From positions 41 through 64,040 of the forward strand of contig JAPLBF010000006.1 of assembly GCA_026392825.1 (NCBI GenBank): a stretch of 64,000 nucleotides of DNA. The letters are read 5' to 3'. The translations under genes were made by a program, and so were the position numbers. Under the pieces are notes generated by a model, which made no database searches, had not been told where the DNA came from, and worked only from the letters and a program-made list of their open reading frames with translations. This stretch comes from Actinomycetota bacterium (lineage in GTDB: Bacteria > Actinomycetota > Actinomycetes > Nanopelagicales > Nanopelagicaceae). Within the stretch, counting starts at the first letter, position 1, and each line of letters begins with the position of its first letter. This document shows, piece by piece, positions 34,060-36,771 of the stretch.

Positions 34060-34853
34060 GCGAAAACGATTTTGATTCCGCACTTACTTACACCTCTTAT
34101 TTGGCAATAGATAAGTTACTTGAATTACAGAACCCTTTATCCGATGGCCCAGAACACGATGAAATGCTCTTTATTATCATCCACCAGAGTTACGAACTCT
34201 GGTTTAAACAATTAATCCACGAATTTAACGAAGCAGGTAAGGCTCTTGAATCGGGCGACACCCACAGATCGCTGGCCATTCTCGGACGGATTCGCACAAT
34301 ACTTAAAGTTTGTGTGACCCAGGTAGATATTTTAGAGACGATGACTCCATTGCAATTTAACGCTTTCCGCGGGTATCTCTCCTCTTCAAGTGGTTTCCAA
34401 TCCGCCCAATTTAGAAAGGTTGAAGCGCTGCTGGGACGCAGAGATTCAAAGATGGCCGCGCATCTTCCTTTAGATGTTCAGGCAGAAATTAATGAGATCG
34501 CCTCACGTAATTCGATCTGGGATTCAACACTGGCTTATCTTTCAAAGCGTGGCCATAAGATCCCCGTTGAAATTTTAAATCGTGACAAATCAACTCATTA
34601 CCAATCAGATCCAAGGGTTATAGAAGCTTTACTAGAAGTTCATCGCAGCGATCCTGAGTCAGCAATGGTCTGTGAAAGGCTGATGGATATCGATGAAGGT
34701 TTGCAAGAGTGGCGCTACCGTCATGTAAAAATGGTGGAGCGCACGATCGGGCAGAAAACTGGCACTGGTGGTTCTGATGGAGTTAAGTACTTAGCGAGTA
34801 CTTTATTTAATCCAGTTTTTAAAGATCTTTGGGATATCCGTTCGCAGTTTTAG
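34056..34853 (+). CDS. kynA: Tryptophan 2,3-dioxygenase
   Basis: HDEMLFIIIHQSYELWFK, FRGYL..SSGFQS.QFR, WRYRH..MVERTIG.KTGTGGS. Confidence 0.96.
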   Translation: MSENDFDSALTYTSYLAIDKLLELQNPLSDGPEHDEMLFIIIHQSYELWFKQLIHEFNEAGKALESGDTHRSLAILGRIRTILKVCVTQVDILETMTPLQFNAFRGYLSSSSGFQSAQFRKVEALLGRRDSKMAAHLPLDVQAEINEIASRNSIWDSTLAYLSKRGHKIPVEILNRDKSTHYQSDPRVIEALLEVHRSDPESAMVCERLMDIDEGLQEWRYRHVKMVERTIGQKTGTGGSDGVKYLASTLFNPVFKDLWDIRSQF

Positions 34854-35179
34854 ATTTTCCCTGTGTAGTGTAAATAGATAATTACAACTATTGAAATAAC
34901 TGCTGCACCGGCAATCAGTGCGAACTGAACCCACTTAGGTATTCCAGCTTTATCGGCAGCTTTTTGCGCATAAGTTCTTGTAGTGACCATAACTCTAGAG
35001 GCCCACGCAAATTCAGTTGCCAAAATACCAAGTCCTGCAATCACAATTAAAACTCCTGGGCCAGGAGCAACTAAAGCGATTGCACCTAAAACAGTTACTG
35101 TCCCGCCCACAATTCCGATGACTACGCGCCAGAGTAAACGTCCGGCTTTTGTCTTTTTAATCCAAGTTCTAATTCTCAT
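34850..35179 (-). CDS. PGPGW-domain (TIGR02611-like) membrane protein
   Basis: LVAPGPG.LIVIAGLGILATEF.WA. Confidence 0.85.
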   Translation of the reverse strand: MRIRTWIKKTKAGRLLWRVVIGIVGGTVTVLGAIALVAPGPGVLIVIAGLGILATEFAWASRVMVTTRTYAQKAADKAGIPKWVQFALIAGAAVISIVVIIYLHYTGKI

Positions 35180-35259
35180 TTTTTCTTTTCTATAAGTTTC
35201 ATATTTAGGGTAAGTTTATTCGGACACGCCCGAACTTCTCGCATAAAAAGGGGTGGGGG

Positions 35260-35363
35260 TTGCAACTTTTTTTGACTTCAGAGATACTTACAGGGCATTC
35301 GAAAGAATGAAAAGGATCGGGAGAGTACTTCTCAAACGAGTTTCTAAATCAGAAACCTTTGCC
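35260..35363 (+). promoter_or_regulatory. Putative sigma-A promoter plus structured 5' leader of the aminotransferase gene
   Basis: TTGCAA(35260)-17 nt-GATACT(35283); the following ~70 nt contain nested complementary segments (see findings). Confidence 0.4.
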
Positions 35364-35376
35364 GTACAGCATTAAA

Positions 35377-36771
35377 ATGATTACACAATCGCATCACGCG
35401 GAAACTTTTAGATCAGTACCAGTAACATCCACGCCGATATCGCCTGAGAAAGTAGCCTCTTTACTGGCCTCAGAATGGCAACTATTTACTAAGAACACCA
35501 AGGGTTCAGCCACTGAGAGCGCGCGCTCAATGAAGTCGCTCCCCCTCGGCGTTACCTCAAGCTTCCAGCACTGGGATCCATATCCAATCTCAATCGTCTC
35601 CGCTAAAGGCGCGTGGATGACAGATGTGGATGGCCGCGAACTGCTCGACCTTTCCATGGGCTTCGGCGCAATGCTCGCCGGACACTTAAACCCAGTTGTT
35701 GTAGCAGAAGCCAAAGCAGCCCTTGATACCGGAATGCTCTTTGTAACCCCATCTCCTATTTCAACTGATGCCGCAGAACGAATCTGCCGTCGCTTCGGAA
35801 TTGACCAAGTTCGATTTACAAATTCAGGTACTGAATCAACTATGTACACTGTGCGAACTGCACGATCTGCGAGTGGTAAGAACGACATTGTTAAAATTGA
35901 AGGTGGTTATCACGGTAGCTACGATCCTTTCGTTGTATCGGCAAAACCTAAAGTTGAATATGCCGGTGATGCAGATTTCCCAACTCCAGTGGCAGATTCA
36001 AACCTGGTAGCGGGAAATGTTTTTGTGGTTCCTTATAACAATGCAGATTCTTTAGAAGCAATTTTCGAAAAGCATTCTTCAACAATTGCTTGCTTCATTG
36101 TTGAGCCTGTTCTTGAAAATATTGGAATCGTTCTTCCTGATGCAGGCTATCTAGAACGCGTTCGCGAACTATGCGATCAATACGGAATCATTTTAATATT
36201 TGATGAAGTAAAAACTGGCCTTACTGCTGGACATCAAGGTGCGGCACAAAGACTTGGCGTGCAACCAGATTTAATCACTCTTGCTAAATCAATCGGTGGT
36301 GGACTTACACTTGCTGCATTCGGTGGCAAGCAGAAGTACATGGATTATGTAAGTAACGGAAAAATGGCCCACTTCGGTACATTTAACGGAAATCCACTAG
36401 CAATGGCCGGTATTCGTGCAGTAGATAAAATCTGTACCGCAGAAACTTTAGCTGCTGCAGAAGCGCTAAACCAACAAGCGCTAGAGCGAATCTCTGCAAT
36501 CATTGATGAATACCAACTTCCAGCGCACACTGTTGGATTTGGCGTTAAGGGCTGTATTACTTGGTCAACTCAACCGGTTCGCAACTATCGTGATTACAAA
36601 GCAACTGATTTTGCAGTAGCTGAACTCTCTTGGCTCTGGTCACTAAACCGCGGCATTATTACGCCTCCCGGCTTAGATGAGCAGTGGTTAATCAGTTTGG
36701 CTCACGGACAGAGAGAAATCGACATTCTTGTCGAAGACTTCCGTTCACTTGCTGCAGCGCTGCGTAGTTAA
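35377..36771 (+). CDS. Class III PLP aminotransferase, GSA-aminomutase-like but probably not HemL
   Basis: RFTNSGTESTM, EGGYHG, LIFDEVKTG, PDLITLAKSIGGG, GTFNGNP; start ATG 35377 or TTG 35359 uncertain. Confidence 0.85.
   Translation: MITQSHHAETFRSVPVTSTPISPEKVASLLASEWQLFTKNTKGSATESARSMKSLPLGVTSSFQHWDPYPISIVSAKGAWMTDVDGRELLDLSMGFGAMLAGHLNPVVVAEAKAALDTGMLFVTPSPISTDAAERICRRFGIDQVRFTNSGTESTMYTVRTARSASGKNDIVKIEGGYHGSYDPFVVSAKPKVEYAGDADFPTPVADSNLVAGNVFVVPYNNADSLEAIFEKHSSTIACFIVEPVLENIGIVLPDAGYLERVRELCDQYGIILIFDEVKTGLTAGHQGAAQRLGVQPDLITLAKSIGGGLTLAAFGGKQKYMDYVSNGKMAHFGTFNGNPLAMAGIRAVDKICTAETLAAAEALNQQALERISAIIDEYQLPAHTVGFGVKGCITWSTQPVRNYRDYKATDFAVAELSWLWSLNRGIITPPGLDEQWLISLAHGQREIDILVEDFRSLAAALRS

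What the first reader, a model, noticed from the sequence alone, without database searches (positions are those of the whole stretch)
35294..35376. Structured 5' leader, a candidate new riboswitch-like element
Seen: just after a plausible promoter (TTGCAA-17-GATACT) the leader can form GGCA(35294-97)/TGCC(35360-63), a (CA)TTC-GAAA-GAA(TG) GNRA hairpin, and AAGG/CCTT enclosing two hairpins, GAGA-GTACT-TCTC and GTTTCT-AAATC-AGAAAC. CATTC/GAATG competes with the outer helix, suggesting alternative folds. The gene has neither an SD nor a leaderless -10. I cannot match it to glycine, c-di-GMP, yybP, guanidine or SAM consensus. Inference: a cis-regulatory RNA sensing an amine or amino acid substrate.
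Basis: partly seen in the sequence, partly recalled or inferred. Interest (0 to 1): 0.55.

Follow-up and report, generated by a model that had tools for sequence, protein, structure and literature searches.

The report
Conserved hairpin-split ribosome-binding leader
This is a real, strongly conserved structured mRNA leader in front of an aminotransferase gene of abundant freshwater acI Actinobacteria, but it looks like a ribosome-binding site split in two by a hairpin, not a metabolite-sensing riboswitch.

Summary
The flagged stretch is the 5' leader of a GSA-aminomutase-like class-III aminotransferase (35377-36771) in a Candidatus Planktophila (acI, Nanopelagicaceae) genome. No Rfam family matches it, and the whole leader folds no better than shuffles (z 0.09). 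Comparison rescues it. A covariance model finds exactly one copy per genome in 111 of 151 Planktophila genomes, always before this gene. The last 64 nt are 73% identical between clades, against 42% at four-fold sites. Lake metatranscriptome contigs cover it from 35301 on.

The 5' hairpin (35296-35309) and the apical hairpin (35340-35356) covary. The outer GGCA/TGCC, AAGG/CCTT and GAGA/TCTC helices are not kept. What is kept, in 126 of 138 distinct leaders from seven genera, is this layout:
- an invariant GGAG (35320-23);
- 0-3 nt;
- one closed imperfect hairpin (35325-35367);
- 5-11 A/U-rich nt;
- AUG.

Hairpin loops and internal loops vary freely.

Best reading (about 0.45): a split ribosome-binding site bridged by a hairpin, as in phage T4 genes 25 and 38, possibly switchable. 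A small-molecule riboswitch is unlikely (about 0.08). It is a new variant of a known kind, and the function is untested.

The parts
35260..35288 (+). Promoter: -35 TTGCAA (35260-65), 17-nt spacer, -10 GATACT (35283-88). The predicted start of transcription is about 35292-35296.
   Evidence: Both hexamers and their spacing are conserved across orthologous loci. RNA-library contigs begin at 35301 and none covers 35064-35300. A strict consensus scan does not call it.
35296..35309 (+). P1: a 5'-proximal hairpin, CAUUC-GAAA-GAAUG.
   Evidence: -4.5 kcal/mol, z -6.9. A hairpin sits at this place in 81 of 83 distinct leaders with many different stem sequences, mean z -2.8.
35310..35318 (+). A-rich single-stranded linker. 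Adapter-joined RNA fragment ends fall at its 3' edge (35317 and 35319).
   Evidence: The sequence is variable but A-rich in all clades. Loose adapter ends are seen in runs X2 and X3, and a contig of X4 starts at 35319.
35319..35323 (+). GGGAG: a Shine-Dalgarno-like element (GGAG 35320-23), 53 nt upstream of the AUG and 1 nt before the long hairpin.
   Evidence: GGAG is present in all 56 leaders (41 distinct) of alignment A4 and in the leaders of the other genera, most often within AAGGAG. In this genome GGAG peaks 5-8 nt before starts.
35325..35367 (+). P2: a long imperfect hairpin. Helix 1 is GUAC 35325-28 with GUAC 35364-67; helix 2 is CAAA 35333-36 with UUUG 35358-61; the apical helix is 35340-45 with 35351-56, loop AAAUC.
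   Evidence: It is the RNAalifold consensus. 99.1% of cells are paired, with covariation in the apical helix. Other genera show CAAU/AUUG and GUGC/GUAC variants. Alone it has z -2.6. Across 48 distinct hairpins the mean z is -2.8.
35368..35376 (+). A/U-rich unstructured spacer (9 nt) between the hairpin base and the start codon.
   Evidence: The spacer is 5-11 nt in 126 of 138 distinct leaders, most often 9-11.
35377..36771 (+). Gene for a class-III (GSA-aminomutase-like) PLP aminotransferase of 464 aa. The substrate is unknown.
   Evidence: Pfam PF00202, E 6.7e-62. It scores below every NCBIfam cut-off. The closest solved structures are GSA aminomutases, beta-transaminases and D-phenylglycine aminotransferase. 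The AUG start is fixed by the N-termini of orthologues.

Best explanation
The leader is a gene-specific translation-initiation device: a split ribosome-binding site. Transcription starts about 6-8 nt after the -10 GATACT. The mRNA opens with a small hairpin (P1), probably a 5' stabiliser. An A-rich linker follows, and then the Shine-Dalgarno sequence GGAG. Instead of lying 5-8 nt before the AUG, the SD is followed at once by a 43-nt imperfect hairpin (P2). The 3' end of P2 lies 9 nt before the AUG. When P2 is folded, the SD and the AUG are about 10 nt apart along the chain and can be engaged together by one 30S subunit. P2 stability would therefore set the translation rate, and could let temperature or a trans-acting factor modulate it.

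Shown: conservation, covariation, the layout, presence in RNA libraries, and the single copy.

Inferred: that GGAG acts as the SD, that P2 bridges it to the AUG, and any switching.
For: 1. Purifying selection on RNA. The last 64 nt are 73% identical between clades, against 42% at four-fold sites of the adjacent gene. Frame-breaking 1-nt indels exclude a coding explanation.
2. P2 covaries. The apical helix is 100% paired with U-A/C-G, C-G/G-C and U-A/A-U exchanges and G.U pairs. Between genera the apical helix is replaced outright, CAAA/UUUG becomes CAAU/AUUG and GUAC/GUAC becomes GUGC/GUAC.
3. The layout is what is conserved. 126 of 138 distinct orthologue leaders from seven genera have GGAG, 0-3 nt, one closed hairpin of 30-49 nt, 5-11 nt, then AUG. 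Five more fit with a 4-nt gap.
4. GGAG is invariant while the loops vary. No other SD lies near the AUG.
5. This genome does use GGAG as an SD, at 5-8 nt.
6. An orthologue from another family has a canonical GGAGG-4 nt-AUG. This suggests the hairpin was inserted between an ancestral SD and the AUG.
7. Precedent. In T4 genes 38 and 25 a hairpin brings the SD-AUG spacing from 22 to 5 nt and from 27 to 11 nt, and the arrangement is conserved among T-even phages (PMC3014915).
8. The leader is present in four freshwater metatranscriptome runs from 35301 on.
Against: - The effective spacing (1 + 8-11 nt, mode 10) is about 3 nt longer than the genomic optimum of 5-8 nt, and the width of the helix base adds to it.
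- Only about a quarter of ORFs in this genome have an SD near a candidate start (26% against 6.5% in controls). SD-independent initiation on the A/U-rich spacer is therefore plausible.
- Four leaders (L147, L174, L175, L204) have lost both the hairpin and GGAG and presumably still express the gene.
- A purely structural bridge does not explain why the helix base keeps the sequence GUAC/GUAC in most genera.
- In predicted ensembles GGAG is rarely fully unpaired.
- The layout is not enriched genome-wide, so it is not a general habit of the organism.
- No translation experiment exists.
Confidence: 0.45

Rival explanations
1. P2 together with the adjacent GGAG is a translational operator bound by a trans-acting factor: an RNA-binding repressor or activator, possibly the aminotransferase itself, or a small RNA. 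The hairpin is the recognition element, not just a spacer.
For: - The base of the hairpin is conserved in sequence, not only in pairing: GGAG-N-GU(A/G)C ... GUAC-A across genera g1, g18, g21, g22 and g27. A purely structural bridge would not require that.
- The element is gene-specific and single-copy.
- Noncontiguous initiation regions with an operator stem-loop are known for E. coli rpmE and thrS (PMC7297116).
Against: - Loops, bulges and internal loops, the usual protein contacts, vary freely within the genus.
- No partner is identified.
- The complement of the conserved 9-mer occurs twice in the genome, below chance expectation.
- This reading can coexist with the split-RBS reading.
Confidence: 0.2
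2. The leader acts mainly on mRNA stability or processing. P1 protects the 5' end. The A-rich linker is an endonuclease site, which would give the 5' ends seen at 35317-35319. P2 then protects the processed message. GGAG conservation would be incidental to this.
For: - P1 sits within a few nt of the predicted 5' end in 81 of 83 distinct leaders, with free sequence drift.
- Adapter-joined fragment ends occur at 35317 (X3) and 35319 (X2), and a contig starts at 35319 (X4), in different studies.
- Starting from 35319, the MFE fold is exactly P2 with a free GGAG.
Against: - It does not explain the invariant GGAG, its fixed 0-3 nt distance to the hairpin, or the narrow 5-11 nt spacer to the AUG.
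- Contigs cannot prove RNA ends.
Confidence: 0.12
3. The leader is a small-molecule riboswitch. It would bind an amine, an amino acid or a PLP-related ligand and control translation.
For: - It is a conserved structured leader before a metabolic enzyme.
- Two near-isoenergetic folds exist in the window clade, one of which pairs the SD.
- It is not a known Rfam family, so it would be a new class.
Against: - There is no conserved unpaired core. The internal loops (UUCU/CC against AGAA/UA, AACU/UCU and others), the bulges and the apical loop all vary.
- The architecture is a plain hairpin with no junction or detected pseudoknot.
- Only one gene carries it, in one copy per genome.
- A conserved inverted repeat upstream of the -35 already suggests control by a transcription factor.
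Confidence: 0.08
4. It is not an RNA element. It would instead be a DNA operator palindrome, a small upstream reading frame (35307-35375 in the window), or neutral sequence conserved by chance.
For: - GTTTCT-N5-AGAAAC is a perfect DNA palindrome.
- A 22-codon frame ending 1 nt before the AUG exists in the window clade.
- The whole leader has z 0.09.
Against: - G.U pairs occur in 10 of 41 distinct sequences. They would be C.A on the other strand, and they break the DNA symmetry.
- 1-nt indels shift every frame, and clade II has no start codon for the frame.
- Conservation far exceeds that of synonymous sites.
- The stretch is present in RNA libraries.
Confidence: 0.03

Closest known systems
Split (noncontiguous) ribosome-binding sites of phage T4 genes 38 and 25 (Nivinskas et al. 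1999; Malys and Nivinskas 2009; reviewed in PMC3014915)
   Same: The SD lies too far from the AUG in the linear sequence. An intervening hairpin brings the two to a functional distance: 22 to 5 nt and 27 to 11 nt in T4, 53 to about 10 nt here. In both cases the hairpin is kept across relatives.
   Different: - This is a cellular, monocistronic gene of an actinobacterium, not a phage intercistronic junction.
- The hairpin is longer (about 43 nt, three helices).
- It is conserved across a whole bacterial family.
- An SD-pairing alternative fold exists in most Planktophila.
- There is no experimental proof here.
Operator stem-loops inside noncontiguous initiation regions (E. coli rpmE and thrS; PMC7297116)
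   Same: A conserved stem-loop in the 5' UTR interrupts the elements that recruit the ribosome and serves gene-specific translational control.
   Different: [quoted passage not shown] Here it separates the SD from the AUG, and no binding protein is known.
Translational riboswitches and RNA thermometers that sequester the SD (general knowledge of these classes)
   Same: It is a 5' leader with alternative pairings involving the SD, and it acts at translation initiation.
   Different: No conserved ligand pocket is present. The SD lies outside the conserved hairpin and far from the AUG. There is no match to any of the 4227 Rfam models.
5'-terminal stabiliser hairpins such as that of the E. coli ompA leader (own knowledge, not checked here)
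   Same: P1 is a short hairpin within a few nt of the predicted 5' end. Its pairing is conserved but its sequence is not.
   Different: The 5' end is predicted, not mapped. A stabilising effect has not been tested.

Membership tests
Split RBS of the T4 gene 25/38 type | An SD complementary to the anti-SD lies at a non-functional linear distance from the start codon, and no SD lies at the canonical distance. | tested here: met
   GGAG 35320-23 is 53 nt before AUG 35377. No GGAG, GAGG or AGGA lies within 4-16 nt of the AUG. GGAG is used as an SD at 5-8 nt elsewhere in the genome. The 16S 3' end was not found in the assembly.
Split RBS of the T4 gene 25/38 type | The intervening sequence folds into one hairpin that brings the SD and the AUG to a functional spacing (about 5-11 nt). 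| tested here: met
   A closed hairpin at 35325-35367 gives an effective spacing of 1+9 nt. 126 of 138 distinct leaders have an effective spacing of 6-14 nt, mode 10. This is at the long end of the functional range.
Split RBS of the T4 gene 25/38 type | The hairpin is conserved phylogenetically, with compensatory changes. | tested here: met
   double changes in the apical helix and in helix 2, and a G.U change in helix 1.
Split RBS of the T4 gene 25/38 type | Mutations that destabilise the hairpin lower translation, and compensatory ones restore it. | not testable with these tools
   This needs reporter fusions or toeprinting.
Riboswitch (any class) | A match to a described aptamer family. | tested here: not met
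   Rfam 15 gave nothing in 35150-35450 up to E 10 apart from three noise hits, and nothing in 13 variant leaders.
Riboswitch (any class) | Highly conserved unpaired nucleotides (junctions, internal loops) that form a ligand pocket, flanked by covarying stems. | tested here: not met
   Internal loops, bulges and the apical loop vary. The invariant bases are GGAG and the helix-base pairs.
Riboswitch (any class) | Direct, specific ligand binding that changes the fold. | not testable with these tools
   This needs in-line probing, ITC or SHAPE.
Intrinsic terminator or transcription attenuator | A G+C-rich hairpin followed by a run of U. | tested here: not met
   No terminator-like site lies in 35150-35450. 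P2 is followed by AGCAUUAAA.
Leader peptide or upstream ORF | A reading frame with start and stop that is kept among relatives. | tested here: not met
   1-nt indels between clades shift the frame, and clade II has no start codon.
DNA operator palindrome | Two-fold symmetry kept on both strands. | tested here: not met
   G.U pairs in 10 of 41 distinct sequences break the DNA symmetry.
5'-terminal stabiliser hairpin | A hairpin within a few nt of the mapped 5' end that prolongs mRNA half-life. | tested here: inconclusive
   P1 begins 2-4 nt after the predicted start in 81 of 83 leaders. RNA contigs reach 35301. The 5' end is not mapped and half-life is not measured.

The most novel reading that the evidence does not exclude
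A family-wide, gene-specific split ribosome-binding site in a cellular organism, in which the bridging hairpin is a two-state switch. In one state the SD is paired with the pyrimidine tract in the hairpin's 5' strand. In the other the SD is released and placed next to the AUG. The switch would be set by temperature or by an unknown factor or ligand. This would be the first cellular counterpart of the T4 gene 25/38 arrangement. It has been maintained throughout the Nanopelagicaceae, among the most abundant freshwater bacteria.
Probability: 0.3. Interest if true: 0.65.

Novelty: new variant of a known kind. Interest (0 to 1): 0.5.

Why it matters
If the reading holds, it shows that hairpin-bridged Shine-Dalgarno sites are not a phage curiosity. 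They can be kept for a very long time in a streamlined cellular genome. The leader would also be a compact, testable model for how mRNA structure positions the 30S subunit in Actinobacteria. It adds an uncatalogued RNA motif for the acI lineage, where regulation is poorly known and cultures are scarce. It also marks a GSA-aminomutase-like aminotransferase of unknown substrate as a tightly controlled gene in a lineage reported to be heme-auxotrophic (title and abstract of bioRxiv 10.1101/2021.01.11.426183, seen; not read further). For annotation, it warns that a missing SD near the start may be misleading when a conserved hairpin intervenes.

Tried and rejected
- Rfam, at gathering and at permissive thresholds, on the window and on 13 variant leaders: nothing relevant.
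- Whole-leader thermodynamics: z 0.09, uninformative.
- Strict sigma-70 scan: does not call the promoter. The promoter call rests on conservation instead.
- uORF 35307-35375 and an in-frame N-terminal extension (TTG 35359): rejected by frame-shifting indels and by missing starts in other clades.
- DNA palindrome: rejected by G.U pairs.
- A regulon. The covariance model finds no second copy in the own genome (next hit E 7). The layout scan gives 13 of 2415 candidate starts against 36 of 8720 internal controls, so there is no enrichment.
- A pattern match before metF (G000 contig C12) looked like a second case. The metF orthologues show instead a conserved TACCCT -10 six nt before the start, that is a leaderless gene, with the 'hairpin' lying in or next to the divergent neighbour. 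It is a chance match.
- An sRNA partner: the complement of the conserved 9-mer is not enriched.
- The g30 hit of the model (L122) is spurious, with no gene behind it.
- Depth in the metatranscriptome contigs cannot be used for expression level or exact ends.
It was redone from stored loci.
- Loci from the two genomes flagged as unpublished (G030, G038: L023, L027) are distant paralogues.

Full report
WHAT IS THERE

The finding lies in the 197-nt gap between a divergently transcribed PGPGW membrane-protein gene (34850-35179, minus strand) and a 464-aa class-III aminotransferase gene (35377-36771, plus strand).

The enzyme resembles glutamate-1-semialdehyde aminomutases, beta-transaminases and D-phenylglycine aminotransferase about equally, and it scores below every curated NCBIfam cut-off. 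Its substrate is therefore unknown.

The genome is 1.38 Mb. Record titles of near-identical loci name it Candidatus Planktophila / Nanopelagicaceae, the freshwater acI lineage.

CHECK OF THE OBSERVATION

Thermodynamics are mixed:
- The leader as a whole is no better than chance: MFE -14.5 kcal/mol, z 0.09.
- The 5' hairpin alone has z -6.9, and the segment 35325-35367 alone has -7.3 kcal/mol and z -2.6.

Rfam 15 has nothing here, even at E up to 10.

COMPARATIVE EVIDENCE

Orthologous loci from the same genus (75-96% protein identity) keep two things: the promoter hexamers TTGCAA-17-GATACT, and a block of about 60 nt that ends at the AUG.

A covariance model of that block (R1) gives:
- one strong hit in the own genome, with the next hit at E 7;
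- one hit per genome in 111 of 151 genomes of the genus, always just before the aminotransferase start.

Between clades the last 64 nt of the leader are 73% identical on average. Four-fold degenerate sites of the adjacent gene are 42% identical and the protein is about 79% identical. One-nucleotide indels inside the block shift every reading frame, so the conservation is not due to coding.

WHICH STRUCTURE IS CONSERVED

It returns one long imperfect hairpin, P2:
- helix 1: GUAC 35325-28 with GUAC 35364-67;
- helix 2: CAAA 35333-36 with UUUG 35358-61;
- the apical 6-bp helix 35340-45 with 35351-56.

On 41 distinct Planktophila leaders this structure is 99.1% paired. The apical helix shows U-A to C-G (8 sequences), C-G to G-C (1), U-A to A-U (16) and U-A to U.G (10).

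Its departures (UUCUC replaced by AGAAC, AUAAC or CUAUC while GAGA stays) are never compensated. GGCA (35294-97) and AAGG (35312-15) lie in variable sequence and are missing even in close relatives.

The 5' hairpin P1 (35296-35309) is well supported. A hairpin is present 2-4 nt after the predicted start in 81 of 83 distinct sequences, with more than ten different stem sequences and a mean z of -2.8.

BEYOND THE GENUS

The model gives weak full-length hits in two other genera. Fetching the orthologue's upstream region in further genera shows the same layout with largely different sequence: (A)AGGAG, 0-3 nt, a single closed hairpin of 30-49 nt, 5-11 mostly A/U nt, then AUG.

- Of 138 distinct leaders, 126 fit this layout. 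Five more fit with a 4-nt gap.
- In several genera the hairpin base is still GUAC/GUAC, or GUGC/GUAC, which is an A-U to G.U change.
- Helix 2 appears as CAAU/AUUG, CAGU/AUUG or UCAA/UUGA.
- The apical helix is replaced outright (GGUCG/CGACC, GAUCG/CGAUC, GGUUC/GAACC and others).
- The 48 distinct hairpins have a mean z of -2.8. This figure has some selection bias, because the boundaries were chosen to close the hairpin.
- Four leaders have lost both the hairpin and GGAG.
- An orthologue from another family has a canonical GGAGG four nt before its AUG.

TRANSCRIPTION

Four lake and river metatranscriptome runs from three studies hold contigs that cover 35301-35396, 35317-35396 or 35319-35396 and continue into the gene. 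None covers 35064-35300.

Contigs cannot prove a start. Even so, this fits a start just after the -10 element, and it contradicts a start downstream of P2.

Adapter sequence abuts 35317 in run X3 and 35319 in run X2. This hints at a discrete 5' end just before GGGAG, possibly from processing in the A-rich linker.

INTERPRETATION

Three features argue against a ligand-binding aptamer and for a device built around the ribosome-binding site:
- the invariant parts are GGAG, the helix base and the spacer length;
- loops and internal loops drift freely;
- the element is single-copy and tied to one gene.

GGAG is the SD core used in this genome, with a peak 5-8 nt before starts. Here it lies 53 nt from the AUG, but only about 10 nt away if P2 is looped out.

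That is the arrangement shown experimentally for T4 genes 38 (22 to 5 nt) and 25 (27 to 11 nt), where it is also conserved phylogenetically (PMC3014915).

In the window's clade the SD-pairing local hairpin (GAGA/UCUC) and P2 exclude each other and are nearly isoenergetic: -15.1 against -13.9 kcal/mol. A switch is therefore conceivable. That alternative is not kept in all clades.

CAVEATS

- The effective spacing is longer than the genomic optimum.
- Only about 26% of ORFs have an SD near a candidate start, against 6.5% in controls. SD-independent initiation is common in this organism.
- Some lineages have dropped the element.
- The sequence conservation of the helix base hints at a specific binder.

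I therefore put the split-RBS reading at about 0.45, a factor-bound operator at 0.2, a stability or processing element at 0.12, a riboswitch at 0.08, and non-RNA explanations at 0.03.

NEGATIVE CONTROLS AND DEAD ENDS

- The layout is not enriched genome-wide: 13 of 2415 candidate starts against 36 of 8720 internal controls.
- A look-alike before metF proved to be a chance match next to a leaderless promoter.
- No complementary sRNA-like site stands out.

NOVELTY

The motif is absent from Rfam. Of the two library papers that mention both Planktophila and riboswitch, the acI genome paper I read (PMC5301498) searched four Rfam models — by its text the TPP (THI), FMN, cobalamin and AdoCbl riboswitches; it prints RF00059 for both the first two — and does not mention this leader. 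No paper held both 'Nanopelagicales' and 'Shine-Dalgarno'.

It is a new variant of a known kind, a hairpin-bridged SD or structured translational leader. It awaits experiment.

Noticed in passing
window 35224-35247, and upstream of the -35 in orthologous loci (for example L015, L155, L192): A recurrent motif lies 10-30 nt upstream of the -35 of this gene in many genera: an inverted repeat of the type YGCGT-N4-5-ACGCR, or ACACGC plus CGCATAAA. CACGC or its complement occurs in 61 of 128 distinct upstream segments. It is probably a transcription-factor site, so the gene may be controlled at transcription as well.
   Followed up: partly
window 35317-35319: Illumina adapter sequence directly abuts 35317 (run X3) and 35319 (run X2), and a contig of X4 starts at 35319. 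This may be a discrete processed RNA 5' end between P1 and GGGAG. From 35319 on, the MFE fold is P2 with a free GGAG.
   Followed up: partly
L015-L018, L185, L189, L191, L192, L200, L201, L252 (a Planktophila subclade): The same gene carries a different and much more stable leader. GGGAG is paired into a 5' hairpin and followed after 4 nt by a 39-nt hairpin (-19 to -20 kcal/mol) that ends 5-6 A before the AUG. The layout is the same but the sequence is unrelated.
   Followed up: partly
L174, L175, L204, L147: Four orthologue leaders lack both P2 and GGAG. Three keep the promoter and the ...CUUUACAA-AUG tail, with UUGGAC where the hairpin would be. One has only about 10 nt of leader. These are natural deletion variants and could serve as controls.
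   Followed up: no
L233, L234 (genus g33; G182, G197, G210, G222, G235): All five g33 orthologues have an in-frame TGA as the third codon after the apparent AUG (AUG ACC UGA). The true start, or the reading of this codon, is unclear.
   Followed up: no
G000 contig C12, about 8311 on the minus strand (L253, L254): metF is leaderless. A conserved AACGGTACCCT, with TACCCT as the -10, lies 6 nt before the start codon across the family, directly next to a divergent gene.
   Followed up: yes
whole genome G000: Only about 26% of ORFs of 150 aa or more have a GGAG, GAGG or AGGA core 4-10 nt before any candidate start (6.5% in internal controls). No 16S rRNA 3' end was found in the assembly.
   Followed up: partly
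L199:6-122 (minus strand): A SAM-IV riboswitch (88 bits) lies upstream of the aminotransferase orthologue in another genus, on the opposite strand. It belongs to a divergent neighbouring gene and is unrelated to this leader.
   Followed up: no
L131, L191, L144, L180 (record titles): Some public MAG records that carry this acI gene at 75-94% identity are titled Bifidobacterium breve or Streptomycetaceae bacterium. The taxonomic labels are probably wrong.
   Followed up: no
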